Shown here: positions 11,369-49,257 of the stretch, in pieces
Position numbering within the stretch: the stretch's first letter is position 1
Layout of the letters: each line of letters starts with the position of its first letter
From: an uncultured Pseudobdellovibrionaceae bacterium
GTDB lineage: Bacteria; Bdellovibrionota; FAC87; UBA2466
Length of the DNA stretch: 64,000 bases
NCBI GenBank assembly: GCA_964604555.1
Contig: CAZRZK010000009.1
Location: 11,261 to 75,260 of the forward strand
Reading direction: 5' to 3'
Translations under genes and position numbers: made by a program
The notes under the pieces: generated by a model
Told to the model about the DNA's origin: nothing
The model's input: only the letters and a program-made list of their open reading frames with translations
Databases searched by the model: none

Positions 11369-11370
11369 CA

Positions 11371-28237: not shown

Positions 28238-29091
28238 GCGATTGGCTAGCCAGTGCTTTAAGATTAGCAACTCCCCTTCTCTTTGCGGCGATGGGCGGAT
28301 TACTGAGTGAGCGGAGTGGAATTGCAACAGTTTGCTTAGAGGGAGTGATGCTGATTGCTGCCTTTGCGGCGGCGACGATTGCCGCCCTCACCCAAAACCT
28401 TGCCCTTGCTATTCTAGGAGCCCTCTTTGCGGGAACCCTTGCGATGATGTTGCATGCCTATTTATCGCTCTACCAGAAAGCGGATCAAGTGGTGAGCAGC
28501 ATGGCGATCAACCTACTCGCGATCGGGATCACCCCTTTTCTCTGCAACCACTATTTTGGAAGCCCGACCAATACTCCTAGCCTTCCTTTAGACCTTCGAG
28601 TCCCTTCAACCTTGTTAACCTGTTTGGCGCTCGTCATTGCGGCAGGAGAATATTTTGCTTTTCGATATACGCGATGGGGAATCTGGATACCAGCGGTAGG
28701 AGATCACCCAGACGCTTCGAAATCTTGTGGAATATCCCCGAAAAGAGTAAGGCGATGGACTCTGCTAGTGGCAGGACTGTTTACCTCAATGGGAGGAATA
28801 TACCTCTCTATTTCCCATGGCAGTCAATTCACCCGTGAAATGACTGCAGGCCGAGGCTTTATCGCTCTTGCTGCCATTATCTTTGGAAAATGGAAACCAG
28901 GCCCTACTATTTTTGCCTGCCTCTTTTTTGGCGGTGCCGATGCCCTTCAGATCGTTCTTCAGAATCAACCCTGGCTTCCCATTCCAGTGCAATTCCTTCA
29001 GATCATTCCCTATGCAGCCACCTTATTTATACTGATAGGCGTCATGGGAAAATGCCAAGCCCCACTATCGATTGGAAAAGTACAGGATTAA
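28234..29091 (+). CDS. ABC transporter permease (CUT2 family, NupC-like)
   Basis: Multi-TM protein. ATGA overlap with the preceding permease, and an RBS (AAAGGAGAGG). Confidence 0.7.
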   Translation: MSDWLASALRLATPLLFAAMGGLLSERSGIATVCLEGVMLIAAFAAATIAALTQNLALAILGALFAGTLAMMLHAYLSLYQKADQVVSSMAINLLAIGITPFLCNHYFGSPTNTPSLPLDLRVPSTLLTCLALVIAAGEYFAFRYTRWGIWIPAVGDHPDASKSCGISPKRVRRWTLLVAGLFTSMGGIYLSISHGSQFTREMTAGRGFIALAAIIFGKWKPGPTIFACLFFGGADALQIVLQNQPWLPIPVQFLQIIPYAATLFILIGVMGKCQAPLSIGKVQD

Positions 29092-29267
29092 GGAGGCAAC
29101 ATTTTCTTGCCTGTTATCAGATTTATCACAAAACTAATCACAGCAAGAACGACAAAAACCCCTAACAAGAGTCTCCCGGCCTCAATTGAAACCCCTGCGA
29201 CGCCGTAAGCACCAAATAACATCGCTAATAAACCCAAAACAAAAAAAGTAATTGCGGCTCTAATCAT
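29088..29267 (-). CDS. DUF1328-family small membrane protein (YtjA-like), 58 aa
   Basis: Absent from the ORF table because it is under 60 aa. GGGAGG RBS before the ATG at 29267. The sequence MIRAAITFFVLGLLAMLFGAYGVAGVSIEAGRLLLGVFVVLAVISFVINLITGKK fits the DUF1328 pattern. Its stop overlaps the BON gene. Confidence 0.5.
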   Translation of the reverse strand: MIRAAITFFVLGLLAMLFGAYGVAGVSIEAGRLLLGVFVVLAVISFVINLITGKKMLPP

Positions 29268-29773
29268 TGTGTCCTCCCGATTCTCAAATGGTTACTGATA
29301 TCTTTCACTCCTGAAACTCCTTCAATACAATCCTCTGCTAGTCTTTTTTCCTGACGAGTTTCCACCGTTCCCCTTAGGATTACCTCTCCATTGTCCACAC
29401 TCACTTCAATGTTAGAGGCATCAATATCATCGTGACGATAGAGAGCCTCATTCACATCTTCTTGAACGCGAGCATCGGAGCGGATGTAATTCTTAGGACC
29501 TTTTCCAAAATGGCTGCCGGCTCGTGGCGCGCCGCCTCTCCATCCCCACTGCTGTCGAGGTTCATAAGAATGCATCCGGCTTGGACCGAAGTTTACTTCA
29601 TTATGATCTTCACTCATCTCGTCTCCGGCATCCTCCCAAGATAATCCTATCGAGGGGGGAAGTTCCTCTTGACCACTATTGGGTGCCCAAACATGTTCAC
29701 GCCGATGAAGGCGATGGGTTGGATTTCGCGCCCACCGGTATTCATCCTGACCTGGATAATAATGGTGTTTCAT
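29264..29773 (-). CDS. BON-domain protein (OsmY-like)
   Basis: C-terminal BON domain (VSVDNGEVILRGTVETRQEKRLAEDCIEGVSGVKDISNHLRI). The start is placed at the Met at 29773, which has an AAGGAG RBS. Confidence 0.7.
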   Translation of the reverse strand: MKHHYYPGQDEYRWARNPTHRLHRREHVWAPNSGQEELPPSIGLSWEDAGDEMSEDHNEVNFGPSRMHSYEPRQQWGWRGGAPRAGSHFGKGPKNYIRSDARVQEDVNEALYRHDDIDASNIEVSVDNGEVILRGTVETRQEKRLAEDCIEGVSGVKDISNHLRIGRTQ

Positions 29774-29801
29774 TTGCACGCTCCTTGATAGAATTTGGTT
29801 C

Positions 29802-29817
29802 TGCAGGTTTGATGCCA
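29802..29817 (-). promoter_or_regulatory. Putative sigma-54 -24/-12 promoter upstream of the BON/DUF1328 genes
   Basis: Minus-strand reading is TGGCAT-caaac-CTGCA, with the GG-N10-GC spacing correct. It lies about 25 nt upstream of the BON start. Confidence 0.45.
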
Positions 29818-29921
29818 AAGAAACACAAGCACTAGCACCAGTGAGAATCGGGAAATTTTCCCGGTTCCCGTCGTTGCGAGGCCCCATCGGGGCCGAAGCA
29901 ACCCTTTTTTATTCTTTTGAG

Positions 29922-30395
29922 TTAAGCCAAGCGAGAGAGGATGGATTTCTCGACTTCGCTGATTTGAGTTTCGTATTGCGGCTTTTTAGACCGAAGAAAA
30001 TTGGCGACCCAATGGGTAACCCCACTCAATGCGGAACGACGGAGCATATTTAATTCTGGCTGGAACTCTTTGATCGCCATCTTCCCTTTTTCCTCAAACC
30101 AAGAGTTTTTCTTAGGAAGATAGGAGGCGTGGATGAATTCATGGCGTATCGGCTCACTCGCCCCATTAACGGCTTTCCCCACCACCATTCCTCCGACCAC
30201 ACCCACACCAAAAGCGACGCCCACACTTGCCCAGGGATGTTTATCGACTTGATTCTTAAGGGAAAGATCTTCAACTTTGGCCTTCACCTTCTCTTTAAAA
30301 TCATAAACCCTGGCTTCCATTTCATGGACTTTTTCTCCCAGGTTTTCACTCGCCCGACTCAACTCCATTTTTAACACCTCTTTTTGGTTATACAT
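29922..30395 (-). CDS. DUF883/ElaB-like membrane-anchored stress protein
   Basis: The hallmark HPWASVGVAFGVGVVGGMVVG (HPW + Gly-rich TM) follows an N-terminal coiled-coil region. Confidence 0.55.
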   Translation of the reverse strand: MYNQKEVLKMELSRASENLGEKVHEMEARVYDFKEKVKAKVEDLSLKNQVDKHPWASVGVAFGVGVVGGMVVGKAVNGASEPIRHEFIHASYLPKKNSWFEEKGKMAIKEFQPELNMLRRSALSGVTHWVANFLRSKKPQYETQISEVEKSILSRLA

Positions 30396-30799
30396 GTGAT
30401 TGTCTCCTTGAAGTTATCGATTAAATGTTGGGGGCCCCAGATTATTTTTGAAAACCGGAGCCAATTGACCCAAATCACAGGAATTGCAACTGCCAGAAAA
30501 GCCAACGCGATCAGTGCAAAGCTGCTCGAAAGGTTCATCCCTGCTTTATCCACGAGCAATACCACAAGAAAGCCGGCCACCAACTGCACACCGACTAATA
30601 GAAGGAGCATTCCAGCAAAAACATTCTTCAAACTATGCTGGGCTGATTCATAACGCTCTTTCAACTCCACTTGGAAAAGCGCCAACTGTAGGTGCACCAC
30701 CTCAGTTAGGCTTTTCCAAGCCTCTTTACTGATATTGAGAAAAGGCTCCTTCGTAGGCTCTTCAATCTGCTCTGATCTTAATAAAGTTACTGTACTCAT
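30371..30799 (-). CDS. YqjE-like (DUF1469 / holin-X-like) membrane protein
   Basis: Amphipathic helix HLQLALFQVELKE followed by two TM segments, and gene order upstream of the ElaB-like gene as in E. coli yqjD-yqjE. Overlaps the downstream gene. Confidence 0.5.
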   Translation of the reverse strand: MSTVTLLRSEQIEEPTKEPFLNISKEAWKSLTEVVHLQLALFQVELKERYESAQHSLKNVFAGMLLLLVGVQLVAGFLVVLLVDKAGMNLSSSFALIALAFLAVAIPVIWVNWLRFSKIIWGPQHLIDNFKETITCITKKRC

Positions 30800-30811
30800 A
30801 ATAATCTAAAA

Positions 30812-30830
30812 CCATGCAAAGCATGTGCCT
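30812..30830 (-). promoter_or_regulatory. Putative sigma-54 -24/-12 promoter for the yqjE-like/ElaB-like operon
   Basis: Minus-strand reading is AGGCAC-atgct-TTGCA, ending 16 nt before the ATG at 30799. Confidence 0.45.
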
Positions 30831-30904
30831 ATCCTTTTTTCTTGATGTGTATCTTTTTGGAACAAATAACTTTCATCTACGTAACAAACCCCTTAATAGG
30901 CAAT

Positions 30905-30920
30905 TGGCATCGGGGTTGCA
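30905..30920 (+). promoter_or_regulatory. Putative sigma-54 -24/-12 promoter for the small secreted protein gene
   Basis: TGGCAT-cgggg-TTGCA is a perfect match to the consensus core, and an AGGAGGG RBS follows before the ATG at 30957. Divergent from the promoter at 30812-30830. Confidence 0.5.
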
Positions 30921-30956
30921 TTCTCTTAACTCAGCACTCAAACAACAGGAGGGTTC

Positions 30957-31223
30957 ATGTCAAAAGTTGCCATTATTTTCCTCACATTCATGTTTATGCA
31001 TCCACATCCCTGGAGTTACGGAGATGAAACACCGGTCGAAAAACTGGAAAATGAATACGATAAAACTAAAACTGAAGCGAAAAAAACGGCCCGTCGGATG
31101 AAGCGGAACCTCCGCAATGATACCGGTCAAGGGAGCGTCAAGAAGGACGTTGAGGACAAAGCCAAAGACTTTAAAGAAGATGCCGAAACACAGGCGAATA
31201 AACTGAAAAGAAAGGTCGACTAA
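30957..31223 (+). CDS. Small secreted Lys/Glu-rich protein
   Basis: Signal peptide followed by a charged low-complexity mature part. Good RBS. Confidence 0.45.
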   Translation: MSKVAIIFLTFMFMHPHPWSYGDETPVEKLENEYDKTKTEAKKTARRMKRNLRNDTGQGSVKKDVEDKAKDFKEDAETQANKLKRKVD

Positions 31224-31432
31224 TGAAACAGGATAAATCAAATGTTGTTCATAATTTTAGGGAGTTGGGTACACTGTTTAATGCTACTCAGCCGAATGCA
31301 GGACAAATCCTGACTAATCAACTCCTGGATCCCTCTGAAAATCAAACTTTGCTCGGGAAAATAGACTCTAAATCCAATCGAAATGCTCCGGAAAAGAGAC
31401 CCGATTTACGACTCATTCACGGATCTATTTTT

Positions 31433-31468
31433 TAGATTTTTTCCCCAGCCATCTCAATTGAGATGGCT
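31433..31468. terminator. Bidirectional terminator hairpin
   Basis: Perfect 13-bp stem CCCCAGCCATCTC-aatt-GAGATGGCTGGGG, flanked by a T-run on one side and an A-run on the other. It lies between convergent genes. Confidence 0.6.
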
Positions 31469-31480
31469 GGGGAAACCTCA

Positions 31481-31780
31481 TTACGCCGCTCGACGGAATC
31501 CTTGGAATAACAAACCCACTAGAACCCCGACGCCCACCCCAATCAAAAGAGTCTGCATGGGATGACTCTTGATCCTCTCTTCGGTGCTCTCCACGGCTCC
31601 TTCAACCGCTTTTTCCACATTGCCATAGGTTTTTTTGGCGATTGAACTGACATTGCTGAGAAACTGGCCAGCAGCATCAGGAGAAATTCCCTCCGATTTT
31701 TCCCCTCTATTTCCAGAGGCTCCCGGCTGCATCCCTTTTTCTTCCGCAGCAAGATCTTTTTTGTATGTTTCCTGTGCCAT
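31481..31780 (-). CDS. DUF883/ElaB-like membrane-anchored stress protein, second paralogue
   Basis: C-terminal HPMQTLLIGVGVGVLVGLLFQGFRRAA. Start placed at the Met at 31780, which has an AAGGAGAG RBS. Confidence 0.55.
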   Translation of the reverse strand: MAQETYKKDLAAEEKGMQPGASGNRGEKSEGISPDAAGQFLSNVSSIAKKTYGNVEKAVEGAVESTEERIKSHPMQTLLIGVGVGVLVGLLFQGFRRAA

Positions 31781-31844
31781 TGTTCTCTCCTTCATTCTTA
31801 AGTTAGTGGCGCTCTTAATTACGCCTGTGTTTGTCGTTAAACTG

Positions 31845-31860
31845 TGCAACATCAATGCCA
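31845..31860 (-). promoter_or_regulatory. Putative sigma-54 -24/-12 promoter for the second ElaB-like gene
   Basis: Minus-strand reading is TGGCAT-tgatg-TTGCA, a consensus match. Confidence 0.5.
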
Positions 31861-31882
31861 TACCTTCCGGACTTTAAGTTTC

Positions 31883-31898
31883 TGGCATGGAATTCGCA
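31883..31898 (+). promoter_or_regulatory. Putative sigma-54 -24/-12 promoter for the FAD/Rieske oxidoreductase gene
   Basis: TGGCAT-ggaat-TCGCA, one mismatch in the -12 element. A GGAGG RBS precedes the ATG at 31924. Confidence 0.4.
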
Positions 31899-31923
31899 GC
31901 CTACAAGATATGGAGGAAATTCT

Positions 31924-33480
31924 ATGAACAAACAACGGAGCATCCCTCTTTGGATCAACCAATCCTTACCCATCGGGAGAAAAATAGATGCAAACTTTCA
32001 TACAGAAGTTTGCGTCATTGGTGCAGGCATCGCGGGGGCTACAACCGCCTATCTGCTCCGACGCGAAGGAAAGCAGGTTACCTTACTGGACAAGGACATT
32101 TTAGGGAACGGCCAAACCTGTCGCACGACTGCGCATCTTTCCAACGCCATTGATAGCCGATATTACGAAATAGAAAGAATTCATGGACAGGAAGGGGCCA
32201 GACTGACCGCTGAAAGTCATAGTTCAGCAATCGATCTCATTGAAAATATCTGTAAGGCGGAATCGATCCATTGTGATTTCACGCGACTCGATGGCTTTCT
32301 ATATGCCCCCGATTCCGATGCCCATCACCATCTGGAACGAGAACTTGCAGCTTGCCATGCGGCGGGATTAACCGATGTTACATTACTCGATAACTTCCCA
32401 CTCCCTTATTTTAAGGCAACGGCCTGCTTGCGCTTCCCCAATCAAGGGCAATTTCATCCCGTTAAATATTTGACAGGATTGGTCAATGCCTTCACTCAAC
32501 AGGGCGGAAACTTTTATTCCCATGCCGAAGTGATTGAAGTGAAAGAAGAGGAGCCGATTAAGATCTTCATACACTCCGGACATCAGATCACCGCCGACGC
32601 GATAGTACTAGCAACCCATACTCCCATATTAAATCGATTTGTGCTCCACACAAAACAGGCGGCCTATCGTACTTATGTTTTGGGATTTAGAGTTCCCACC
32701 TATTCTGTTCCGATGGCCCTGTACTGGGATACTTTACATCCCTATCATTACATTCGCCTTCATCGGGATAAAGACGCCGACATTTTAATCGTCGGAGGGA
32801 AAGACCACAGAACGGGACAGGTAGAAGATGAACGCCACTGCCTGGAAAAACTGGAGCTTTGGGCTCGAGCCCGTTTTCCAAAAGCTGGACCCACACTCTT
32901 TGAATGGTCGGGGCAGATCGAGGAATCGTTAGATGGGCTCGCTTTCATCGGCCACAACCCACTCCACAACAAAAATGTTTATGTGGTCACCGGAGATTCG
33001 GGGATGGGAATGACCCACGGAACGATCGCTGGCAAATTGATCCGCGATCTCATTGCGGGAAGACCCAATTCCTGGAAAGAGCTCTATGATCCCGGCCGCA
33101 AAACACTGGGCTCGGTGAAACGATGGCTGCAGGAGAATATGAATACCGCCATTCAGTATGGAGATTATTTTAAATCCGGCAAAGTGAAATCCTCCAGCGA
33201 GCTCATGCGCGGCCAAGGAGCTATCTTAAACCAAGGTACGCATAAAGTTGCCTTGTATCGTGAAGAGAATGGAACCCTTCACTCCCTTTCTGCGAAATGC
33301 CCTCATTTAGGAGGCATCGTGAAGTGGAATAGCGAGGAAAAAACCTGGGATTGCCCGTGTCATGGCTCGCGCTTCTCCTCAACTGGGAGCGTGATCAATG
33401 GACCCGCGGCTTGCGATCTCACTCCAGTGCCACTGAAGGAAGAGGAGAGCCATCCCGAGACCTTCAAAAAGGCTAGCTAG
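31924..33480 (+). CDS. FAD-dependent oxidoreductase fused to a C-terminal Rieske [2Fe-2S] domain
   Basis: N-terminal dinucleotide-binding motif VCVIGAGIAGATTA and C-terminal Rieske boxes CPHLGG...CPCHGS. Start taken at the internal Met at 31924. Confidence 0.7.
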   Translation: MNKQRSIPLWINQSLPIGRKIDANFHTEVCVIGAGIAGATTAYLLRREGKQVTLLDKDILGNGQTCRTTAHLSNAIDSRYYEIERIHGQEGARLTAESHSSAIDLIENICKAESIHCDFTRLDGFLYAPDSDAHHHLERELAACHAAGLTDVTLLDNFPLPYFKATACLRFPNQGQFHPVKYLTGLVNAFTQQGGNFYSHAEVIEVKEEEPIKIFIHSGHQITADAIVLATHTPILNRFVLHTKQAAYRTYVLGFRVPTYSVPMALYWDTLHPYHYIRLHRDKDADILIVGGKDHRTGQVEDERHCLEKLELWARARFPKAGPTLFEWSGQIEESLDGLAFIGHNPLHNKNVYVVTGDSGMGMTHGTIAGKLIRDLIAGRPNSWKELYDPGRKTLGSVKRWLQENMNTAIQYGDYFKSGKVKSSSELMRGQGAILNQGTHKVALYREENGTLHSLSAKCPHLGGIVKWNSEEKTWDCPCHGSRFSSTGSVINGPAACDLTPVPLKEEESHPETFKKAS

Positions 33481-33599
33481 GAATTTTCACAAAGGTACGG
33501 CCTACCTTTGTGAAGACCTCTTTGCATCTTCACAAAGGTAGGCCGTACCTTTGTGAAAATTCCCGATGACAAAGCAGATGGCACTTTTTCAACAAAGCC
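33481..33599. repeat. MITE/REP-like nested palindromic element, copy 2
   Basis: Same 29-bp palindromic core (TTCACAAAGGTACGGCCTACCTTTGTGAA) in inverted orientation around a 14-bp loop, plus the conserved tail CCGATGACAAAGCAGATGGCACTTTTTCAACAAAGCC. The outer stem bases differ from copy 1 but remain complementary. Confidence 0.7.
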
Positions 33600-33648
33600 A
33601 AAAAAGAAAAGGGTCCGGAACCGAAGCCCCAGACCCCTTGAGGTAGGA

Positions 33649-33903
33649 TTAGCCCCCCATAGTTTCTTCGGATGAATCGACTACAGGTTGCTCGTGTGAA
33701 ACTTTTTCATCGCTATAGGGATCATTAGGGGTGCGCCTGTGCACCTCACGTGCCTCTTCACTCGCTTCGATCGCCTCTCTCGGAATAAAACTCTGGGTGT
33801 TTCCTTTCACAGGTTTAACCACCACTCCTTGGTTCGAGGGAAACACATCTCTCTTATACTCTTCAATTTTTCGAGCTTCTCTTGCTGTTACTGTCATAAA
33901 CAC
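33649..33903 (-). CDS. Small hypothetical acidic protein
   Basis: 84-aa ORF starting 1 nt after the dps stop, so probably co-transcribed. No recognised domain. Confidence 0.35.
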   Translation of the reverse strand: MFMTVTAREARKIEEYKRDVFPSNQGVVVKPVKGNTQSFIPREAIEASEEAREVHRRTPNDPYSDEKVSHEQPVVDSSEETMGG

Positions 33904-33904
33904 C

Positions 33905-34348
33905 TCATTCTAAATGGCTGTGCAACATCCACGCCGCCTTTTCATGGGTCCCTATCCGTTGAACCAACATGTCGTGACTGTAGCTATCGCCCAATTTCTG
34001 CAACTCTTCAGCCGCTTTGGAATATTGTTCAGCTAATTTTTGATTGCTTACGACAAGATCCACCAAGATATCATCCTGATTTCGACTCATCGAAGTAAAT
34101 TCCTTGATGGTCGTATCTTCCAAGATATGGGCGAGCGAAATAGGAGCTTCGCCACCCAACGCCCGGATCCGTTCAGCTATCATATCTACCGCTTCGGCCT
34201 GATCGCCGTATTGCTCTTCAGTCAGTTTATGAACTGAAAAAAACTTAGGGCCATGGTAATTCCAATGCACAGCATAGGTTTTCACATATACGACAAATGC
34301 ATTAGAAACGACCGATTGCAGGACCTGAACCCGTTTTGAACGTTCCAT
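33905..34348 (-). CDS. dps: Dps (DNA-binding ferritin-like protein from starved cells)
   Basis: Ferritin-like ferroxidase-centre region VYVKTYAVHWNYHGPKFFSVHKLTEEQY and DMIAERIRALGG, in a 147-aa protein. Confidence 0.8.
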   Translation of the reverse strand: MERSKRVQVLQSVVSNAFVVYVKTYAVHWNYHGPKFFSVHKLTEEQYGDQAEAVDMIAERIRALGGEAPISLAHILEDTTIKEFTSMSRNQDDILVDLVVSNQKLAEQYSKAAEELQKLGDSYSHDMLVQRIGTHEKAAWMLHSHLE

Positions 34349-34371
34349 AGTTGATTCTCCTTTGTTTCGAT

Positions 34372-34569
34372 CTATTTCTCATCGAGCATATTATCGACGT
34401 TACGTTTCACCACCTGCTTCAGATCGCCAATCCCTTTTTGGATCTTTCCTTTGACGCGATCAAAAAGCCCTTTGCTGGCCAGGTTATCGTTGCCTAAACG
34501 ATACCCGATATTTTCCTTTGCTTTTCCTTTTGCCTCGTTAATGGCTCCCTTAACATGGTGACTATTCAT
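34372..34569 (-). CDS. CsbD-family general stress protein
   Basis: 65 aa with repeated KGK/G-rich CsbD motifs (GAINEAKGKAKENIG...KGKIQKGIGDLK). Confidence 0.65.
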   Translation of the reverse strand: MNSHHVKGAINEAKGKAKENIGYRLGNDNLASKGLFDRVKGKIQKGIGDLKQVVKRNVDNMLDEK

Positions 34570-34610
34570 TGTGTTCTCCTTTAATGGTTGATTGCTTATG
34601 ATTTTAATAT

Positions 34611-34626
34611 TGCAAGGACAAGGCCA
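34611..34626 (-). promoter_or_regulatory. Putative sigma-54 -24/-12 promoter for the csbD-dps operon
   Basis: Minus-strand reading is TGGCCT-tgtcc-TTGCA, about 40 nt upstream of the csbD ATG, with an AAGGAG RBS between. Confidence 0.45.
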
Positions 34627-34694
34627 AGTGATCTGAGCCCGGAGAGGAAGCGATTTTTTCCTGACGCGGGGAATTTTTCCCGGCGAGCCGGAAT

Positions 34695-34710
34695 CGGCAC
34701 ATCTATTGCT
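34695..34710 (+). promoter_or_regulatory. Putative sigma-54 -24/-12 promoter for the small ORF at 34738
   Basis: CGGCAC-atcta-TTGCT with correct GG-N10-GC spacing. Divergent from the csbD promoter. Confidence 0.4.
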
Positions 34711-34737
34711 TCATACTCAATTAAGGAGAGCAATCAT

Positions 34738-34950
34738 ATGAGAAAACTATTGGAATGGCTTCACCTGGTCCCTAAATCAAAAAATTTCGATCCCGAATTT
34801 ACCGGTTCCTATCCACGGAATGAGGGGGCGAAGAATGCGGTGATTGGAGGGGCTCCTGAAGATATGAATGCGATGCCCGCGACCGGAGATCCGGAACATC
34901 CGATTTATGATGGTTCCGACTTGCCTAAACCGTCACAGGCCATTCATTGA
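34738..34950 (+). CDS. Small hypothetical protein (70 aa)
   Basis: Internal Met with a strong AGGAG RBS. The longer ORF from 34588 lacks signals. Confidence 0.4.
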   Translation: MRKLLEWLHLVPKSKNFDPEFTGSYPRNEGAKNAVIGGAPEDMNAMPATGDPEHPIYDGSDLPKPSQAIH

Positions 34951-39591: not shown

Positions 39592-39797
39592 TTGGATTCC
39601 TTCCTGGAACTTACCTTCATGCTATTCCTAAAGTGTGGATCAATTTTTGAAAGATCGTGCTCAGCTGAGCATATTTCAAACCAGCTGTATTCAGCCTATC
39701 TATAGGCAAATCTTGGTACCGACATTGCAATTTTAAAGAGCGGAGTGGTGTGCTGGTGTAGCACGAAACGGATGCGAGTCGGAAAATTGTTAAACAG

Positions 39798-41312
39798 ATG
39801 TCAAAACAGTCGTTAATATGTTTACTGGCCTTCGTCATTTTAGGCAGTTCAACGCCCTCTCCTGCCCTCCCTCGCTGCACAAATTTACTCGATGCCTTGA
39901 TTCGAACGGCGGCAAACAGAGGGGCGGAAATGGGTGTCCCGATCCCCGTCGGAGAGCGTATTCTCAAGGATGAAAAGAATCGTCAGACCTATTTGGATTT
40001 GGTGCGGGCCTTTTCAAGAATTCATTCCCTTCCTCATTCGTTCTTTCAAGGGATTATCGACCGGATCGATCACCCTCTCTATTTCTTCGATACCAGAACT
40101 CCTTTTCAAAAGGCGCGTGATAAGTTTTTTTCCCTCTTTACGGGCCGCAAGCATGATCCAGTCTTGGCCGGACGTTACCGATTAGTTGAAGATGTTTTAA
40201 AAGAACTTCAACTCCCCTTTCCCCTTCCGCTCAAAGCATTCATTTCCAAGGCTCTTCTTTCCCATCCCGTGCCAAAGCCTCGCTCAACCGAGAAAGCTGC
40301 TGTCTTTAAACAGATCGATAAAACGATCGACAAAATCATCACGCATCGGGAGCACTTCTCGCTGGCAGCCGCTCTATCAGAACTCGATTTCGTTAAAATG
40401 GTCGACCTCAATGGAAACCCAATCAAATTAGGCCAATTGAACCGTCAAGGACGGAGATTCATTCAAGACAAGATTACTCTTGAGAGCATAAAAGAGACCA
40501 TAAAAAGCTTCTTAAAGGATTTTTATTTGCGCCACGCACCGGTGATGATCGGTCAGTTGCAATCTCCTTCCGAACGCACACCTCAGCAGATCCTACATTC
40601 AAACGTAGAGCATTGGCTGAACGAAAGGAAATTCAGGAACTCTCGATTAAGGAAAATCCTTACCCAGATCATTGAAGAAACCACCTTAGGCGAACCCATT
40701 CCAGAAATCCGGCCTTCGGAAGTCAAACGGAACATTGAAACCCATCTTCAGAAAACGCTCCAACAATTCGCTCAATCTTATCAACAGCTCAATCCGCAAA
40801 TGGAAGCTCCGATTGTCATCAAGACTGATACTCCCTCCATTTCTCCAGTGACCGGAACCACTGTTCCTGCGCCTCGGCTTCCCCATATTCGGAAAAAGAA
40901 AAAAAGAGGCTCATCAAATGACGAAAAGAAGCCTGAGTCGCCTGAAGCTCAAACCTCTCCGTCACCTACGCTGGTCCATGAAAAAGCGACGGGTGTTTTC
41001 CCGATCGAAAACCCGCTCGGCATGACTTTTTCAGATCCCCAGGTTGAAGCGTTTTTTAAGACCGGGAATGCAAGGAATGCGCCGTGGGTCGGCTTAAAAA
41101 CACAGGCAGAACGAAAGCTGAGAACTCTTGCTAAAATCACCGATTTTGCAAGTTTAAAATTATTCCCTAACTTTAAAGAGTATAAAACCAAAGGAGAAAA
41201 ATACTTTGGCTACTATTCCATTCGCATCGATAGACAGTTCAGATTAATATTCAAATGGCGCGACAATCATGTTGTTGAGGTATTGATAGACGATTATCAT
41301 ACTCCTGAATGA
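39798..41312 (+). CDS. Secreted protein with C-terminal HigB/RelE-type toxin domain
   Basis: N-terminal signal peptide, about 400 aa without a known domain, and a Lys-rich linker. The last ~95 aa (from an internal Met at 41022) align along their length with HigB killer proteins (FSDPQVEAFFKTG...KLFPNFKEYKTKGEKYFGYYSIRIDRQFRLIFKWRDNHVVEVLIDDYH). Confidence 0.6.
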   Translation: MSKQSLICLLAFVILGSSTPSPALPRCTNLLDALIRTAANRGAEMGVPIPVGERILKDEKNRQTYLDLVRAFSRIHSLPHSFFQGIIDRIDHPLYFFDTRTPFQKARDKFFSLFTGRKHDPVLAGRYRLVEDVLKELQLPFPLPLKAFISKALLSHPVPKPRSTEKAAVFKQIDKTIDKIITHREHFSLAAALSELDFVKMVDLNGNPIKLGQLNRQGRRFIQDKITLESIKETIKSFLKDFYLRHAPVMIGQLQSPSERTPQQILHSNVEHWLNERKFRNSRLRKILTQIIEETTLGEPIPEIRPSEVKRNIETHLQKTLQQFAQSYQQLNPQMEAPIVIKTDTPSISPVTGTTVPAPRLPHIRKKKKRGSSNDEKKPESPEAQTSPSPTLVHEKATGVFPIENPLGMTFSDPQVEAFFKTGNARNAPWVGLKTQAERKLRTLAKITDFASLKLFPNFKEYKTKGEKYFGYYSIRIDRQFRLIFKWRDNHVVEVLIDDYHTPE

Positions 41313-44396: not shown

Positions 44397-46088
44397 ATGC
44401 CTAGGCTCAATTATCCTTTAAGACTGCTCCTCTGTTTTTTGAGCATCTTCCTGCCCCTTTCCTCATTAGACCTCTGGTTTTACGATCACCTTTTCCAGAT
44501 TCGCGGGCAGTTAGATAATGCTACCTCGATTATACTGGTCAGGGTCAATGAAAACCAACTCAATTACCCTTCCCTCATCCAATCGATCCAGCTCGATCAT
44601 CCAGAACTGATCGTCTTCTGTTCCTTTTTTGATGCCCATGAAGCCTTCGACACCTCGGGACTTCCATATGACAACATCCTCTACTCCGCCTCGATCAATG
44701 AGGAAAATAAATTAATTCTTCCGGAACCTAGCCTTACCCAACGGGCCGATCGCTTTGGTTTCAACAACCTTTTCCCTGATAGCGACAACACCATCCGCAA
44801 AGGCCCCTTGGTTTATAACTCAACTCCTTCGCTTGCCCTTCGCACCTTCTTCTTCAAGAACCCTTCTTCATTGAGTCGAAACCTCATGGAACCGATTCAG
44901 ATCGATTTTCGTGGCCCCAGCGGAAGCTACCGACTCTATGATGCCACCCGGATCATCAATCAGATGACCCCGCCTCGAACCTTTAAAGACAAGATCGTGC
45001 TCATCGCCAAGGAATCGACCCTCAACCAGGATGTGGAGACCCCTCTGGGACGCCTCTCACGCGTGGAGGTGCAGGCCAATTTTATCGATACATTCTTGCA
45101 AGGCAGAGAGATCCGAAACGCTCCGCACTCCGTGGTGCTCGCCATCGCCGCCCTTTCTGTGCTGATATCGGCGGTCCTCATCCATCTTTTTCCCCTCACT
45201 TTGGCCTGGTTATTCCTGGTTCTCTTTTCTCTGATCCTAGTTTTATTTGCACTTCTTCTTTTATCGACGGCAAAATGGTGGATTGGTCTCGCCAACCCCA
45301 TCTGCGGAATCTTTGTGACCCACTTGATCATGCTCGGCTACAAACTGCGCAAACAGGAACAGCTCCAATGGAAATGGGAGCAGGAATCGGTCTATCTCAA
45401 AGAAATGGATCAATTTAAAAACAATTTTATTTCCCTCTTCAGCCACGATCTCAAAACCCCCATTGCCAAAATTCGTGCGATTACGGAACGTCTCCTCAGC
45501 TCCCACGCCGAACTCCCGGCCACCATCAAGGAAGATCTCAAAACCCTCGATCGCACCAACGACGAACTCTCCCGGTTGATCAGTGACATCCTCAAAGTGA
45601 CCAAGATGGAAACCCTCTCTTTGGAACCGCAAAAAGGGGTGATCGATCTGAATCGATTGGTTGAATTAGCGCTCCAGAGGCTCCAATTCAATGCCGAGGA
45701 GAAAAAGATCCAGATTGTGACCGATCTCGAACCGCTCTTTTCGATGGAAGGAGATCCTCAGTGGATTGAAGAGGTGATCGCCAACCTCGTCGAAAATGCG
45801 ATTAAATATAGCCCCCCGAGCTCCACCATCACCATCAAGACACAGGAATTGAAGGATCGAGTCCTTCTAACCGTCATCGATCAGGGAATGGGCATTGATC
45901 TGAATGAACTTCCCAAAATCACCGGCAAGTTTTTCCGGGGAAAGCGCGCCAGCGAAACGACCAAAGGGACCGGCCTTGGTCTTTACCTCTCCAAATACTT
46001 CATTGAACTCCATAACGGAGGATTAGAGGTCAAGAGCGAAACCGGCAAAGGCACAGAGGTTGGATTCTGGCTGCCTTTATCGGTCTAA
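44397..46088 (+). CDS. Sensor histidine kinase with CHASE2-like extracytoplasmic domain
   Basis: TM1, a ~200-aa periplasmic domain and three clustered TM helices. HisKA (FSHDLKTPIAKI) and HATPase (GLGLYLSKYF) motifs. Confidence 0.7.
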   Translation: MPRLNYPLRLLLCFLSIFLPLSSLDLWFYDHLFQIRGQLDNATSIILVRVNENQLNYPSLIQSIQLDHPELIVFCSFFDAHEAFDTSGLPYDNILYSASINEENKLILPEPSLTQRADRFGFNNLFPDSDNTIRKGPLVYNSTPSLALRTFFFKNPSSLSRNLMEPIQIDFRGPSGSYRLYDATRIINQMTPPRTFKDKIVLIAKESTLNQDVETPLGRLSRVEVQANFIDTFLQGREIRNAPHSVVLAIAALSVLISAVLIHLFPLTLAWLFLVLFSLILVLFALLLLSTAKWWIGLANPICGIFVTHLIMLGYKLRKQEQLQWKWEQESVYLKEMDQFKNNFISLFSHDLKTPIAKIRAITERLLSSHAELPATIKEDLKTLDRTNDELSRLISDILKVTKMETLSLEPQKGVIDLNRLVELALQRLQFNAEEKKIQIVTDLEPLFSMEGDPQWIEEVIANLVENAIKYSPPSSTITIKTQELKDRVLLTVIDQGMGIDLNELPKITGKFFRGKRASETTKGTGLGLYLSKYFIELHNGGLEVKSETGKGTEVGFWLPLSV

Positions 46089-47201
46089 AGAATCTAGATT
46101 CCAGAAATGGAGCAGGGTTGGCCTGATCTTGGTGCCTTCAATAGAAGCTCCTGACGTTACCCCTAAGAGGCGTTTGCTATCCGGAGAAAAGGCTATCTCA
46201 AAAAAAGTGGCTGATGGATCGGGCAAAGACAAAACCTTCAAAACCTTGCCCGTTTCTGCATCCAACAACTCAAACCTTTGCCTCTCAACGCTTCCAAACT
46301 TCGAGTAGGCTAAATACTTCCCATTGGGGGAAAGCTTCAGTTTCGTATAATTTGTATAGGAGGATTCATTTTTATGATGCCAAACCAATTTTGGCCGCCC
46401 CTCTTCGTCCATTTGGGTCAGATCTAATAAAGCGATCGAACGATCATTATAAAGATAGATTCCCCTTCCGTTTTTGGTGAAGGTGATTTCAGCCCTCTTG
46501 ATCGGAAGCTTTATCTGACGAATTTTCTGGGGTGGATCTTTTCGGAAATCCCACTCATCCAATTGATAGGCCTCGAGCTCATTGGCATTCATCCAGCCAA
46601 CATACGTATAAAGAGAACGACTATCAGCCGAAAATTTCACTTCAACAAAAAAATCGGTTTTTGACTTCAGTCTTTTGTAAGGCTCCCATTTATTCAAGAG
46701 AGAATCTCTTTCATATTTGAGACTCGTTTCAAAGTCATAAAGGCTCACCTCCCCCTTATCATCACTGGAGGCCAGTTTTTTACCATCGGAACTAAAAGCC
46801 AATCGAACCCCTTGTGAATCCAGAAAAAAGAGTCGCTTCTTTGTTTCCAGATCCCAAACCCCAATGGGATCCAATCGGTCATAAACGACATCTCGCACCA
46901 GGTAGCGGCCATTCGGAGAGATAGCACTAGGATAGGTAAATCGAAAATATTCCCGTTGCTTACCAAAAACATCCTCAATCATCTCGCCGTTATCTTTTTT
47001 ATATTTCACCACCTTCAGTTGACTCTCTCCTCCCATTTCAAAAGAGATCAAAATAAAGTTTCCATCGGGGAGATAGGAAAGCTCGATTCTATTTTTATGC
47101 GCGTCGAGATCTTGAAGAGTGGCACTCAGAAAAGGGGAAGAGTCTCCGAAGTGCGGATTAGAAACAACAAAAAGGGCTAAGATGCAAAATGGGACTGGCA
47201 C
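46077..47201 (-). CDS. Secreted beta-propeller (WD40/PD40-like repeat) protein
   Basis: Signal peptide and repeated ...SPNGRYL/ SSDGKKLAS / SPNGKYLAY units typical of TolB/PD40 blades. Confidence 0.5.
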   Translation of the reverse strand: MPVPFCILALFVVSNPHFGDSSPFLSATLQDLDAHKNRIELSYLPDGNFILISFEMGGESQLKVVKYKKDNGEMIEDVFGKQREYFRFTYPSAISPNGRYLVRDVVYDRLDPIGVWDLETKKRLFFLDSQGVRLAFSSDGKKLASSDDKGEVSLYDFETSLKYERDSLLNKWEPYKRLKSKTDFFVEVKFSADSRSLYTYVGWMNANELEAYQLDEWDFRKDPPQKIRQIKLPIKRAEITFTKNGRGIYLYNDRSIALLDLTQMDEEGRPKLVWHHKNESSYTNYTKLKLSPNGKYLAYSKFGSVERQRFELLDAETGKVLKVLSLPDPSATFFEIAFSPDSKRLLGVTSGASIEGTKIRPTLLHFWNLDSLDR

Positions 47202-47299
47202 GGAAAAACCTCCTGATTAACGCTGCATATAGCACAAGGAGGAGAACTCAATTAGAGCCTGGTGAGGAAAAGCCGTTATGCAGTGTTTAGAGAGGTAGG

Positions 47300-47773
47300 C
47301 TATTTTTGAATAAACGGTTCAATCGCATCAGCGAGGTAATCCATGATGCTCCTCATGGAGAGGACCCGTTCGGCATTGGAATAGCTATCGGTTACCACTA
47401 AATGACGGAACTGCCCTTTGCGCATCGCCAAGAGGGCTTGCCCCATCGTTTCCTGCCGTTGCATAGTCTTGGGGTTGGGGGTCATGAAGCTGGAAACTTT
47501 CTGCCCTTGAACATCCTTCAGGGAGAGGTTTTTAAAGGCAATCTTCTTGAGATAATCCCGCTCCGTAATAATTCCTATCGGCTTGCCCCCCTCGGCTATG
47601 AGAACACTCCCCACATTGGCCGATTGGAAGATGGCCATCACCTTTTCGATAGGGGTGTCAGGAGCACATTTCTGGAGGGTGCCAGAGTTTGGCAGGTCTC
47701 CAATCGGACGATCCAGCACTTCCCTGAGCATCAGTTTCATATCGGGGTTAATCTTAAGTGCAGCGTTAGCCAT
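47300..47773 (-). CDS. CBS-domain pair protein
   Basis: Two CBS motifs (VGSVLIAEGGKPIGIITERD; FRHLVVTDS). Confidence 0.65.
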   Translation of the reverse strand: MANAALKINPDMKLMLREVLDRPIGDLPNSGTLQKCAPDTPIEKVMAIFQSANVGSVLIAEGGKPIGIITERDYLKKIAFKNLSLKDVQGQKVSSFMTPNPKTMQRQETMGQALLAMRKGQFRHLVVTDSYSNAERVLSMRSIMDYLADAIEPFIQK

Positions 47774-47832
47774 AAATATATTTTAGCATGAATTGAATTG
47801 ATGCTATGTGTTGGTTTTGGTAAAAACACGTC

Positions 47833-49257
47833 GTGTATTCCATATTAGTCGTAGATGATGAGGTTGAGCTTCGCCGCCAAATTATGGCAATCCTTAAGGA
47901 AAAGGGATACCAGGTGGATGAAGCGGCCGATGGGATGGAGGCTCTCAAGAAGCTTGCCCAGAAACCCTACCCCTTGATTTTATGTGACGTCATGATGCCC
48001 AACCTGGATGGGCTGGAGCTGCTCAAACAGGTCCAGGGACAGGAATACCAAACAGCCATTGTATTGCTTACCGCCCATGGAAATATTCGGGACGCTATCT
48101 CCGCCATTCGGGAAGGGGCCTTCGACTACATCGAAAAACCAATTACCGAAGCCGCTATCCTAAACATCGTGGAAAAGGCTGAGAATGCTTATCAGATGAT
48201 CCATCGGATCGCCTATTCAGCCCCCCTCCTCCCAGGTGAAGGACGGGAATGTGTCGGTTCAAGCCGGAGCATGAAGCGGGTTTTCCAATTGGTCGATCGG
48301 TTGATCAAGGTCAACACCTCAGTTTTGATTCGCGGAGAGAATGGAACGGGAAAAGAGCTGGTGGCCCGTGCGATCCACTATAATAGTCCTCGAAAGAATG
48401 GCCCCTTCGTAGCCGTGAACTGCGCTGCCATTCCAGAAAACTTGATTGAGAGCGAACTGTTTGGACATGAAAAAGGTGCTTTTACCGGGGCCACCGAAAG
48501 AAAGATTGGAAAATTCCAATTCGCCGCCCAGGGGACTCTCTTCCTCGATGAAATTGGCGACACCAGTTCCGCAACCCAAGTAAAGTTATTACGGGCCTTG
48601 CAAGAGCACACCTTTACGCCGGTGGGAAGCAATCGCGAAGTAAAAGCCGATGTCCGAATCATTGCCGCCACCAACCAAGATCTGGAAAAACTGATCCGCG
48701 AAGGAAAATTCAGAGAGGATCTCTATTACCGATTGAGTGTCATGCCTCTCTTTTTGCCCCCCTTGCGCGAACGCAAAGAAGACATCCCCTCACTGGTTCA
48801 CCACTTTGTGGAAAAATTCAACCTCGAACACGATCGTAAAATCACAGCAATCGCTCCCGAAGCCTTGGAAGCGCTCCAGGCGTTCCACTGGCCCGGCAAC
48901 ATCCGTGAACTTGAAAATGCGATTGAGCATGCCTTTGTAGTTGAAAATGACGAGGTCATTTCATTTTTCAGCCTTCCTGAATATGTGCGACGGAATGTTC
49001 GCAAACCGGTTCATGTCGGTGCCGAAGCAGAAGAGGGTGGCAACTTACAATGGTTGCCTTATATGGATTGGGAAAAGGGGAAAGAGGCCTTCGAGAAGGA
49101 ATTCATCATCCATGCCCTTAAAACCAATCGTGGACGCATCAATTTAACGGCCGAGCAATCGAACATTCCCAAAAATACATTATTGAGAAAAATTAAGAAA
49201 TATCAAATCAACCCCAAGGAGTATGGGGCGACCGACAGCGAGCTGACAGAGATCTAA
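47833..49257 (+). CDS. Sigma-54-dependent response regulator (NtrC family enhancer-binding protein)
   Basis: Receiver domain (VVDDE...D54 in LCDVMMPNLDG), AAA+ domain with Walker A GENGTGKE and the GAFTGA motif, and a C-terminal Fis-type HTH. Confidence 0.85.
   Translation: MYSILVVDDEVELRRQIMAILKEKGYQVDEAADGMEALKKLAQKPYPLILCDVMMPNLDGLELLKQVQGQEYQTAIVLLTAHGNIRDAISAIREGAFDYIEKPITEAAILNIVEKAENAYQMIHRIAYSAPLLPGEGRECVGSSRSMKRVFQLVDRLIKVNTSVLIRGENGTGKELVARAIHYNSPRKNGPFVAVNCAAIPENLIESELFGHEKGAFTGATERKIGKFQFAAQGTLFLDEIGDTSSATQVKLLRALQEHTFTPVGSNREVKADVRIIAATNQDLEKLIREGKFREDLYYRLSVMPLFLPPLRERKEDIPSLVHHFVEKFNLEHDRKITAIAPEALEALQAFHWPGNIRELENAIEHAFVVENDEVISFFSLPEYVRRNVRKPVHVGAEAEEGGNLQWLPYMDWEKGKEAFEKEFIIHALKTNRGRINLTAEQSNIPKNTLLRKIKKYQINPKEYGATDSELTEI

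What the first reader, a model, noticed from the sequence alone, without database searches (positions are those of the whole stretch)
29088..34950. General-stress-type gene island in which seven transcription units carry sigma-54 -24/-12 promoters
Reading the upstream regions directly, seven elements match TGGCAC-N5-TTGCA with the invariant GG-N10-GC spacing. They sit upstream of BON+DUF1328 (TGGCATcaaacCTGCA), yqjE-like+ElaB-like (AGGCACatgctTTGCA), the small secreted protein (TGGCATcggggTTGCA), ElaB-like 2 (TGGCATtgatgTTGCA), the FAD/Rieske oxidoreductase (TGGCATggaatTCGCA), csbD-dps-84aa (TGGCCTtgtccTTGCA) and the small ORF at 34738 (CGGCACatctaTTGCT), and are followed by good RBSs at sensible distances. 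Three pairs are divergent back-to-back promoters. The encoded proteins (BON/OsmY, DUF883/ElaB x2, YqjE, DUF1328, CsbD, Dps) are classic sigmaS/sigmaB/EcfG-regulon members in model organisms. A compact sigma-54 regulon of them would therefore be an unusual regulatory architecture for envelope/oxidative stress. The NtrC-type EBP at 47833-49257 is a candidate activator. I saw no comparable motifs upstream of the other operons I checked.
Basis: partly seen in the sequence, partly recalled or inferred. Interest (0 to 1): 0.8.

Follow-up and report, generated by a model that had tools for sequence, protein, structure and literature searches.

The report
Sigma-54 promoters drive stress-gene island
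In an uncultured Bdellovibrionota bacterium, every transcription unit of a 6-kb cluster of classic "general stress" genes (Dps, CsbD, OsmY-like BON, ElaB/YqjE-like and others) sits behind a textbook sigma-54 promoter. Relatives keep these promoters, so this lineage probably switches its stress proteins on through an ATP-driven activator rather than a stress sigma factor.

Summary
Seven TGGCAY-N5-TTGCW elements with exact GG-N10-GC spacing lie at the stated places. Each is intergenic and points at its gene, 15-64 nt from the start codon. The window holds 14 matches with at most 1 mismatch, against 3.7 ± 2.0 expected. Seven of them fall within 4.9 kb and cover 7 of 7 island transcription units, against about 1 of 31 elsewhere. 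Pfam confirms the gene identities.

The organism is an uncultured Bdellovibrionota. Related contigs carry equivalent elements before dps or csbD-dps (9 of 20 Bdellovibrionota loci, 0 of 22 proteobacterial loci). They also carry them before the elaB/yqjE operon, DUF1328, the sec88 and orf70 homologues and the FAD/Rieske orthologue, again often as back-to-back pairs.

The best reading is a conserved, enhancer-binding-protein (EBP)-gated sigma-54 stress regulon. The activator is not identified. The NtrC-type EBP at 47833-49257 pairs with the CHASE2 kinase at 44397-46088 and is highly conserved, but nothing links it to the island. No upstream activator sequence (UAS) is shared by all promoters. 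One promoter (yqjE-like) lacks an RBS.

I found no publication describing this. I rate it a new variant of a known kind, of moderate-to-high interest.

The parts
29088..29267 (-). DUF1328 small membrane protein (59 aa), second gene of the BON unit
   Evidence: Pfam PF07043, E = 3e-7. It is 61% identical to 60-aa proteins in L017 and L018, each of which has its own sigma-54-like site.
29264..29773 (-). BON-domain (OsmY-like) protein, 169 aa
   Evidence: Pfam PF04972, E = 2e-19. Weak NCBIfam match to OsmY.
29802..29817 (-). Sigma-54 -24/-12 element TGGCATCAAACCTGCA, 28 nt before the BON ATG; the RBS AAGGAG lies between
29849..29863 (.). Perfect 15-bp palindrome CGGGAAATTTTCCCG, about 65 bp upstream of the inferred BON start site; a candidate activator or regulator site
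   Evidence: The only exact match in the window. The only near match (1-2 mismatches) is at 34667-34682. Weak evidence.
29922..30395 (-). ElaB/YqjD-like (DUF883 C-terminal glycine zipper) protein, 157 aa
   Evidence: Pfam PF19029, E = 3.5e-5, below the gathering score.
30371..30799 (-). YqjE-like (Phage_holin_3_6) membrane protein, 142 aa, first gene of the unit
   Evidence: Pfam PF07332, E = 8e-10.
30815..30830 (-). Sigma-54 element AGGCACATGCTTTGCA, only 15 nt before the ATG, with no Shine-Dalgarno sequence (near-leaderless transcript)
30905..30920 (+). Sigma-54 element TGGCATCGGGGTTGCA (perfect consensus), 36 nt before the sec88 ATG; RBS AGGAGG
30957..31435 (+). Small protein sec88 (88 aa, hydrophobic N-terminus), followed by an overlapping 70-aa ORF (31223-31435)
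   Evidence: No Pfam match. Homologue in L043 at 11164-11442 (33% over 58 aa, E = 2e-9), which has its own sigma-54-like site.
31440..31475 (.). 36-nt palindrome between the convergent sec88 and ElaB2 units; likely a bidirectional terminator
   Evidence: repeat I2.
31481..31783 (-). Second ElaB-like (DUF883_C) protein, 100 aa
   Evidence: Pfam PF19029, E = 3e-3, weak. Similar to the first gene of the elaB/yqjE operons in L042 and L043.
31845..31860 (-). Sigma-54 element TGGCATTGATGTTGCA (perfect consensus), 61 nt before the ElaB2 ATG
31883..31898 (+). Sigma-54 element TGGCATGGAATTCGCA, 25 nt before the FAD/Rieske ATG; back to back with the previous element, 22 bp apart
   Evidence: The orthologue in L002 has CGGCACGCTTTTCGCA 31 nt before its ATG, the same TTCGCA variant.
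31924..33480 (+). FAD-dependent oxidoreductase with a C-terminal Rieske domain, 518 aa
   Evidence: Pfam DAO 3e-51 and Rieske 7e-13. It is a member of similar stress clusters in a Nitrospiraceae MAG.
33608..33639 (-). Intrinsic terminator (14-bp stem plus T run) ending the csbD-dps-84aa unit
33649..34569 (-). Operon csbD (34372-34569), dps (33905-34348) and an 84-aa ORF (33649-33903)
   Evidence: Pfam CsbD 9e-12 and Ferritin/Dps 1e-24.
34611..34626 (-). Sigma-54 element TGGCCTTGTCCTTGCA, 41 nt before the csbD ATG
   Evidence: The TGGCC variant is shared by the dps promoters of L042 and L043.
34667..34682 (.). Near-palindrome CGGGGAATTTTTCCCG between the csbD and orf70 promoters
34695..34710 (+). 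Sigma-54 element CGGCACATCTATTGCT, 27 nt before the orf70 ATG; RBS AAGGAG
34738..34950 (+). orf70, a 70-aa protein of unknown family
   Evidence: No Pfam or NCBIfam match. Short similarity (GG.PED.N.MP) to an 85-aa ORF in L005 that also has a sigma-54-like site.
44397..46088 (+). CHASE2 sensor histidine kinase, probable partner of the EBP; a candidate only, not shown to act on the island
   Evidence: Pfam CHASE2+HisKA+HATPase_c. It sits directly upstream of the EBP orthologue in L067.
47833..49257 (+). NtrC-type enhancer-binding protein (REC + sigma-54 AAA+ with GAFTGA + HTH_8); a candidate activator, unproven
   Evidence: Pfam. GAFTGA motif and the only EBP in the window. It does not reach the cut-off of any named NCBIfam equivalog. 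Orthologues are 65-86% identical in more than 100 clusters.

Best explanation
The 5.9-kb island of an uncultured Bdellovibrionota genome consists of seven transcription units:
- BON-DUF1328
- yqjE-like plus elaB-like
- sec88 (plus a 70-aa ORF)
- elaB-like 2
- the FAD/Rieske oxidoreductase
- csbD-dps-84aa
- orf70

Each unit is transcribed from its own sigma-54 (RpoN) promoter.

The mechanism is inferred from established sigma-54 biology. RNA polymerase carrying sigma-54 sits on the -24 GG and -12 GC elements as a closed, silent complex. A stress-activated AAA+ enhancer-binding protein hydrolyses ATP to open it. This gives tight repression without stress and co-ordinated induction of membrane-, ribosome- and DNA-protective proteins under stress.

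The wiring is ancestral to this lineage. The same promoter type precedes the orthologous genes in related Bdellovibrionota, often as divergent back-to-back pairs.

What is shown: motif presence, placement, enrichment, conservation and gene identities. What is inferred: use by sigma-54, EBP dependence, induction by stress and control in common. The activator is unknown. The conserved CHASE2-kinase/NtrC-type pair in the window is one candidate, at about 0.2.
For: Motif statistics. There are 14 hits against 3.7 expected and 11 against 2.0 under the stricter rule. Seven cluster within 4.9 kb. Nine of the 11 strict hits are intergenic, although only 9% of the window is intergenic.

Placement. All seven elements point at a start codon 15-64 nt downstream, six of them with a Shine-Dalgarno sequence. 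Sigma-70-type hexamer pairs number 3 in the island against 8.9 expected.

Conservation.
- dps or csbD-dps carries a site scoring at least 5 in 9 of 20 Bdellovibrionota loci and in 0 of 22 proteobacterial loci. The binomial probability is about 2e-9.
- In L042 and L043 (Dps 70% and 67% identical), dps and the divergent elaB/yqjE operon both have sites. The dps -24/-12 block is the best-conserved stretch of an otherwise diverged spacer.
- Further sites precede the sec88 homologue and a lipoprotein gene as a divergent pair in L043, DUF1328 in L017 and L018, the orf70 homologue in L005, and the FAD/Rieske orthologue plus a DUF3309 gene in L002.
- The position matrix of 28 such sites reproduces TGGCAY-N5-TTGCW.

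Sigma-54 in the organism. The window encodes an EBP with the GAFTGA motif. RpoN is annotated in cultured Bdellovibrionota (PMC3464611, PMC13147790).
Against: - There is no experimental start-site or expression data.
- rpoN itself is not in the window.
- No upstream activator sequence is common to the four promoter regions. The palindrome is shared by only two of them and is absent from the relatives' loci.
- In the 22-bp back-to-back pair, the usual enhancer position (-80 to -150) falls inside the partner's transcribed or coding region.
- The yqjE-like unit would give a 4-8 nt leader with no RBS.
- Bacteriovoracaceae loci lack the site before dps, so conservation is lineage-restricted.
- Homology of some small proteins between loci is weak.
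Confidence: 0.8

Rival explanations
1. The seven elements are genuine sigma-54 promoters, but they do not form one regulon. Several different enhancer-binding proteins, responding to different signals, each control one or a few units. The island is then a physical cluster rather than a regulatory one.
For: No motif other than -24/-12 is shared by all four promoter regions. The palindrome occurs in only two regions. In relatives the genes are scattered, each with its own promoter.
Against: The tight clustering, the shared divergent architecture and the coherent stress-type gene content argue for co-regulation. The same gene families carry the sites again in relatives.
Confidence: 0.3
2. The CHASE2 kinase (44397-46088) and the NtrC-type EBP (47833-49257) are the dedicated activator pair for the island.
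For: It is the only EBP in 64 kb. The kinase and EBP are an adjacent pair in relative L067. The EBP is highly conserved across the lineage, at 65-86% identity. No sigma-54 sites lie next to the EBP here or in two relatives, so its targets must be remote. It is not an equivalog of any named EBP.
Against: It lies 13 kb from the island, with unrelated genes between. No EBP lies near the stress genes in any relative's locus. Genomes of this kind usually encode several EBPs. No binding site can be assigned to it.
Confidence: 0.2
3. The matches are fortuitous or serve another DNA-binding protein, and the genes are transcribed from sigma-70-family promoters.
For: Only sequence evidence exists. At 2 mismatches the pattern is not enriched, with 66 hits against 50 expected.
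Against: Strong enrichment at stringent thresholds. Strict orientation and spacing relative to start codons. Conservation in diverged relatives where the flanking DNA does not align. Absence from proteobacterial dps loci. A shortage of sigma-70-like sites.
Confidence: 0.04

Closest known systems
E. coli/Salmonella ZraSR-ZraP envelope stress system (sigma-54; established knowledge, not tested here)
   Same: A two-component kinase and an NtrC-type EBP activate sigma-54 promoters arranged divergently (zraP and zraSR), driving a small envelope stress protein. This matches the divergent sigma-54 pairs and the stress and envelope proteins seen here.
   Different: ZraSR controls essentially one divergent pair next to its own genes. 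Here there are seven units, no EBP in or beside the island, and different gene families. The window's EBP scores far below the ZraR equivalog cut-off (362 against 760 bits).
Phage-shock (Psp) response, PspF/sigma-54 (established knowledge)
   Same: A sigma-54-dependent response to membrane stress that induces small membrane-associated effectors.
   Different: PspF has no receiver domain and is controlled by PspA. No PspA or PspF is present here. The window's EBP is below the PspF cut-offs. The gene content is unrelated.
General stress regulons of sigma-S (E. coli), sigma-B (Bacillus) and EcfG (Alphaproteobacteria)
   Same: Near-identical effector families: OsmY/BON, ElaB/YqjD (DUF883), YqjE, YtjA (DUF1328), Dps, CsbD, and in relatives YflT.
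   Different: Those regulons use sigma-70-family factors with -35/-10 promoters, and induction works by changing sigma availability. Here the promoters are of the -24/-12 type and would need an ATPase activator.
Borrelia Rrp2-RpoN-RpoS cascade and Myxococcus sigma-54/EBP starvation networks (cited in PMC3162934; otherwise established knowledge)
   Same: Sigma-54 plus an NtrC-type EBP sits at the top of a stress or adaptation programme.
   Different: In Borrelia sigma-54 acts indirectly, through a single promoter at rpoS. Here sigma-54 elements lie directly on every effector unit. The Myxococcus EBP targets are developmental genes rather than this gene set.

Membership tests
Sigma-54 (RpoN)-dependent promoter | Invariant GG at -24 and GC at -12, separated by exactly 10 nt | tested here: met
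   All seven sites and 28 of 28 sites including relatives.
Sigma-54 (RpoN)-dependent promoter | Extended consensus TGGCAC-N5-TTGCW, found more often than chance | tested here: met
   Each site has 0-1 mismatch. 14 hits against 3.7 expected and 11 against 2.0 under the stricter rule.
Sigma-54 (RpoN)-dependent promoter | Intergenic, oriented toward a gene, at a distance compatible with a start site about 12 nt downstream of the GC | tested here: met
   Gaps of 15-64 nt to the start codons. One unit (yqjE-like) would be near-leaderless.
Sigma-54 (RpoN)-dependent promoter | rpoN present in the genome | not testable with these tools
   rpoN is not in the 64-kb window. Its presence is inferred from the GAFTGA-containing EBP and from RpoN in cultured Bdellovibrionota (PMC3464611, PMC13147790).
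Sigma-54 (RpoN)-dependent promoter | Upstream activator sequence (enhancer) for an EBP | tested here: inconclusive
   A 15-bp palindrome lies at 29849-29863, with a near copy at 34667-34682 only. No motif is shared by all four regions beyond chance. It is absent from relatives.
Sigma-54 (RpoN)-dependent promoter | Transcription depends on sigma-54 and on ATP hydrolysis by an EBP | not testable with these tools
   Needs expression or in vitro transcription experiments.
Sigma-54 (RpoN)-dependent promoter | Conservation of the element before orthologous genes | tested here: met
   Sites precede dps/csbD, the elaB/yqjE operon, sec88, orf70, DUF1328 and FAD/Rieske in relatives. Not examined for BON itself.
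General-stress-type effector set (as in the sigma-S, sigma-B and EcfG regulons) | Presence of the hallmark families BON/OsmY, DUF883, YqjE-type, DUF1328, CsbD and Dps | tested here: met
   Pfam. The two DUF883_C hits are below the gathering score.
General-stress-type effector set (as in the sigma-S, sigma-B and EcfG regulons) | Induction by multiple stresses or stationary phase | not testable with these tools
   No expression data exist for this uncultured organism.
NtrC-family response-regulator EBP (47833-49257) | REC + sigma-54 AAA+ domain with GAFTGA + HTH_8 | tested here: met
   Pfam. GAFTGA at nucleotide 48475.
Named EBP equivalogs (NtrC, AtoC, ZraR, PspF, NorR, GlrR, etc.) | Score above the NCBIfam equivalog cut-off | tested here: not met
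   The best match, AtoC, scores 451 bits against a cut-off of 714. All others are also below their cut-offs.

The most novel reading that the evidence does not exclude
In a large, mostly uncultured Bdellovibrionota lineage, and possibly in some Nitrospirota, the general stress response is not run by a stress sigma factor of the sigma-70 family. Instead it is a direct sigma-54 regulon gated by one conserved two-component EBP, perhaps the CHASE2-kinase/NtrC-type pair. The EBP would act on compact divergent promoter pairs that leave no room for a conventional upstream enhancer.
Probability: 0.25. Interest if true: 0.75.

Novelty: new variant of a known kind. Interest (0 to 1): 0.62.

Why it matters
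General stress regulons are textbook examples of control by sigma-factor replacement (sigma-S, sigma-B, EcfG). Sigma-54 works differently: promoters are fully silent until an ATPase activator fires.

Finding the hallmark general-stress proteins wired directly to sigma-54, and conserved across a phylum-level lineage, would add a third regulatory solution to the same physiological problem. It would also give the first predicted content for the uncharacterised sigma-54 regulon of Bdellovibrionota. That group includes predators considered as living antibiotics.

The finding defines concrete targets for rpoN and EBP genetics in cultivable relatives, namely the dps, csbD and DUF1328 promoters. The back-to-back pairs 22-74 bp apart also raise the question of where, or whether, the activator binds DNA.

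Tried and rejected
- **Common enhancer.** I compared every 13-mer across the four promoter regions. The best shared motif is no better than with random regions. A palindrome scan of 18 promoter upstream regions found nothing recurrent. GGAAAAWWTCC occurs in two island regions and in one L042 promoter region only. This is too weak to call.
- **EBP adjacency.** No EBP lies in any of the relatives' stress loci. No sigma-54 site lies near the EBP orthologues in L066 and L067.
- **REC-only regulator.** One sits beside dps in L005 and L069, but it has no orthologue in the window.
- **Sigma-54 control of the FAD/Rieske gene across phyla.** Absent in a Blastocatellia MAG and in a 6.3-Mb genome. Weak in a Gemmataceae MAG. 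One site heads the whole cluster in a Nitrospiraceae MAG. The control is therefore not universal.
- **Foreign origin of the island.** GC is 44-49% against a window mean of 47.7%, so there is no anomaly.
- **Known RNAs.** No Rfam or tRNA hits in the window.
- **Metagenome scan with the Dps alignment.** It gave only 18 loci, none closer than 54%.
- **Literature.** Searches for sigma-54/RpoN with CsbD, DUF883, Dps, OsmY or Bdellovibrio found no description of such a regulon. The Bdellovibrio start-site study reports only the FliA motif.

Full report
**1. What is in the sequence**

The region 29088-34950 holds seven transcription units.
- DUF1328 (29088-29267, minus strand)
- BON (29264-29773, minus)
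- an ElaB-like DUF883_C protein (29922-30395, minus)
- a YqjE-type Phage_holin_3_6 protein (30371-30799, minus)
- a second DUF883_C protein (31481-31783, minus)
- a DAO+Rieske oxidoreductase (31924-33480, plus; the start is 31924, not 31925)
- Dps/ferritin (33905-34348, minus)
- CsbD (34372-34569, minus)

The 88-aa, 84-aa and 70-aa ORFs have no family.

All seven quoted -24/-12 elements are present. Each is intergenic and points at its gene. The gaps from the motif's 3' end to the start codon are 28, 15, 36, 61, 25, 41 and 27 nt. Six units have a Shine-Dalgarno sequence in that gap. The yqjE-like unit has a 15-nt gap and no Shine-Dalgarno sequence.

The three divergent pairs are real, with 74, 22 and 68 bp between the motifs.

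**2. Is it more than chance?**

TGGCAYN5TTGCW with at most 1 mismatch gives 14 hits, against 3.69 ± 1.99 expected. None of 100 shuffles reached 14. At 2 mismatches the signal disappears, with 66 hits against 50, as expected for a loose pattern.

Requiring GG-N10-GC plus at least 6 of 7 further consensus positions gives 11 hits, against 2.0 ± 1.4 expected. The maximum in 300 simulations was 6. Seven of the 11 lie between 29802 and 34710. Nine of the 11 are intergenic, although only 9% of the window is intergenic. That script's greedy gene model hid two island sites under a spurious ORF.

Per transcription unit, the automatic model gives 5 of 6 island units against 1 of 31 outside (Fisher p = 8e-5). 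With the curated model the island count is 7 of 7.

Sigma-70-type hexamer pairs number 3 in the island against 8.9 expected. Island GC is unremarkable.

The four strict hits outside the island are:
- 22374 and 55313, both inside genes
- 39714(+), 68 nt before ORF 39798-41312, with no Shine-Dalgarno sequence
- 10061(+), with no downstream ORF and no notable RNA fold

**3. Whose genome is it?**

The exact proteins occur on one NCBI contig of 90.5 kb, without a name. The nearest named Dps relatives are Bdellovibrionota, Bdellovibrionales, Pseudobdellovibrionaceae and Bacteriovoracaceae MAGs. The EBP's relatives are named Bdellovibrionota, 'Deltaproteobacteria' and Oligoflexia. The window therefore comes from an uncultured Bdellovibrionota lineage.

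For the model species B. bacteriovorus HD100, the literature lists RpoD, FliA, an RpoN-like factor (bd0843), RpoE-like factors and one further sigma-70 homologue. No RpoS is named (PMC3464611, PMC11209729). Peredibacter also has sigma-54 (PMC13147790).

**4. Comparative evidence**

*Closest relatives found, L042 and L043 (Dps 70% and 67% identical).* Here dps is divergent from an elaB-like/yqjE-like/third-gene operon. Both directions carry sigma-54-type elements back to back:
- L042: TGGCACGCACTCTGCA (minus) and TGGCCCATGTTTTGCT (plus)
- L043: TGGCACGTTCCCTGCA (minus) and TGGCCGCCATTTTGCT (plus)

The spacer is otherwise too diverged to align, yet the dps TGGCC...TTTTGCT block is conserved. The window's csbD-dps element has the same unusual TGGCC.

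L043 also has a divergent pair before a sec88 homologue (33% over 58 aa, E = 2e-9) and a lipoprotein gene.

*Further sites:*
- csbD-dps in L004
- dps and an orf70-like ORF in L005
- dps in L007, L008, L013 and L068
- dps-sodA in L069
- DUF1328 in L017 and L018 (61% identical to the window's protein)
- the FAD/Rieske orthologue in L002 (57% identity), with the same TTCGCA -12 variant, plus a DUF3309 gene

A site scoring at least 5 precedes dps or its operon in 9 of 20 Bdellovibrionota loci and in 0 of 22 proteobacterial loci. The binomial probability against the window's background rate is about 2e-9.

Bacteriovoracaceae loci lack the site, so the wiring is lineage-restricted.

The frequency matrix of 28 sites is TGGCA(C/T)-N5-(T)TGC(A/T).

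*Outside the phylum.* A Nitrospiraceae MAG has a csbD-DUF3309-FAD/Rieske-BON-YflT-hemerythrin-catalase cluster. A single TGGCACACATTCTGCT lies 93 nt before csbD. A Blastocatellia MAG and a 6.3-Mb genome have no site before the FAD/Rieske gene.

**5. The activator question**

The window has one EBP, at 47833-49257. It has REC, a sigma-54 AAA+ domain with GAFTGA, and HTH_8. It reaches no named equivalog cut-off.

Its orthologues are 65-86% identical in more than 100 clusters. In L067 the EBP gene directly follows a CHASE2 histidine kinase gene. The CHASE2 kinase at 44397-46088 is therefore its probable partner. In the window the two are separated by WD40 and CBS genes on the other strand.

No sigma-54 site lies near the EBP here or in L066 and L067, so its targets are remote. 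That is compatible with the island being a target but is no evidence for it.

No EBP lies in any relative's stress locus.

A perfect palindrome, CGGGAAATTTTCCCG, sits about 65 bp upstream of the inferred BON start. A near copy lies between the csbD and orf70 promoters. These are the only two such sites in 64 kb. The other two promoter regions lack the palindrome, the relatives lack it, and no other motif is shared beyond chance.

In the 22-bp pair, the conventional enhancer zone falls inside the partner's transcribed region.

**6. Interpretation**

The most economical reading is a conserved sigma-54-dependent, EBP-gated set of stress-protection genes. The holoenzyme would wait in closed complexes, and an activated AAA+ EBP would open them. 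I put the confidence that these are functional sigma-54 promoters at about 0.8.

Whether one EBP controls all seven units is open, at roughly even odds. The window's EBP is a candidate at about 0.2.

Chance, or a different protein binding these elements, is very unlikely (about 0.04).

**7. Comparison with known systems and novelty**

Sigma-54 control of individual stress systems is well known (Psp, ZraSR-ZraP, Rtc, NorR). Sigma-54 has also been proposed as a controller of the cell exterior (PMC3162934). That survey does not mention Bdellovibrio or Dps. The Geobacter RpoN study found no RpoN elements at stress genes, and that organism has RpoS.

The effector families here are those of the sigma-S, sigma-B and EcfG regulons.

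I found no paper linking sigma-54 to CsbD, Dps, DUF883 or OsmY-type genes, and none describing a sigma-54 regulon in Bdellovibrionota. The library is incomplete, so this is absence of evidence.

I rate the finding a new variant of a known kind: a sigma-54 regulon with unusual, general-stress-type content and a compact divergent promoter architecture.

Noticed in passing
window 33480-33563 and 11258-11325: A repeated palindromic (REP/MITE-like) element. It consists of two copies of a 29-nt palindrome, TTCACAAAGGTA..TACCTTTGTGAA, in inverted orientation, forming a 37-nt perfect inverted repeat. The RNA fold is -81.8 kcal/mol with z = -9.2. One copy lies immediately after the FAD/Rieske stop codon. 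A second pair lies at 11258-11325.
   Followed up: partly
window 10061-10076 (+): An orphan sigma-54-like element, TGGCACATCGCGTGCA, in a gap of about 600 nt. No ORF longer than 25 aa lies downstream on that strand. The 180-nt downstream stretch has no unusual fold (z = -0.9) and no Rfam hit.
   Followed up: partly
window 39714-39729 (+): A sigma-54-like element, TGGTACCGACATTGCA, 68 nt before ORF 39798-41312 (504 aa with a HigB-like C-terminal domain). There is no Shine-Dalgarno sequence. It is possibly an eighth sigma-54 promoter in the window.
   Followed up: no
window 44397-49257; L067 8090-11416: The CHASE2 histidine kinase and the NtrC-type EBP are adjacent genes in a relative. In the window they are split by WD40 (46077-47201) and CBS (47300-47773) genes on the opposite strand. 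The guaB-guaA synteny downstream is kept.
   Followed up: partly
L005 3441-3926; L069 2624-3088: A REC-only response regulator (154-161 aa, 66% identical between the two loci) lies next to the sigma-54-preceded dps gene in two relatives. No orthologue is in the window.
   Followed up: partly
L062 4341-9065 (Nitrospiraceae MAG GCA_003599275.1): A co-directional stress cluster, csbD-DUF3309-FAD/Rieske-BON-YflT-hemerythrin-catalase, with one sigma-54-like element 93 nt before csbD. This hints that the sigma-54/stress link may extend beyond Bdellovibrionota.
   Followed up: partly
L066 3103-11905; L067 11422-12228; window 49915-53407: Tryptophan 2,3-dioxygenase and kynurenine-pathway genes lie immediately downstream of the EBP orthologues in relatives. 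In the window, a beta-eliminating lyase and an Amidohydro_2 gene lie in the corresponding region. No sigma-54 sites were found there.
   Followed up: no
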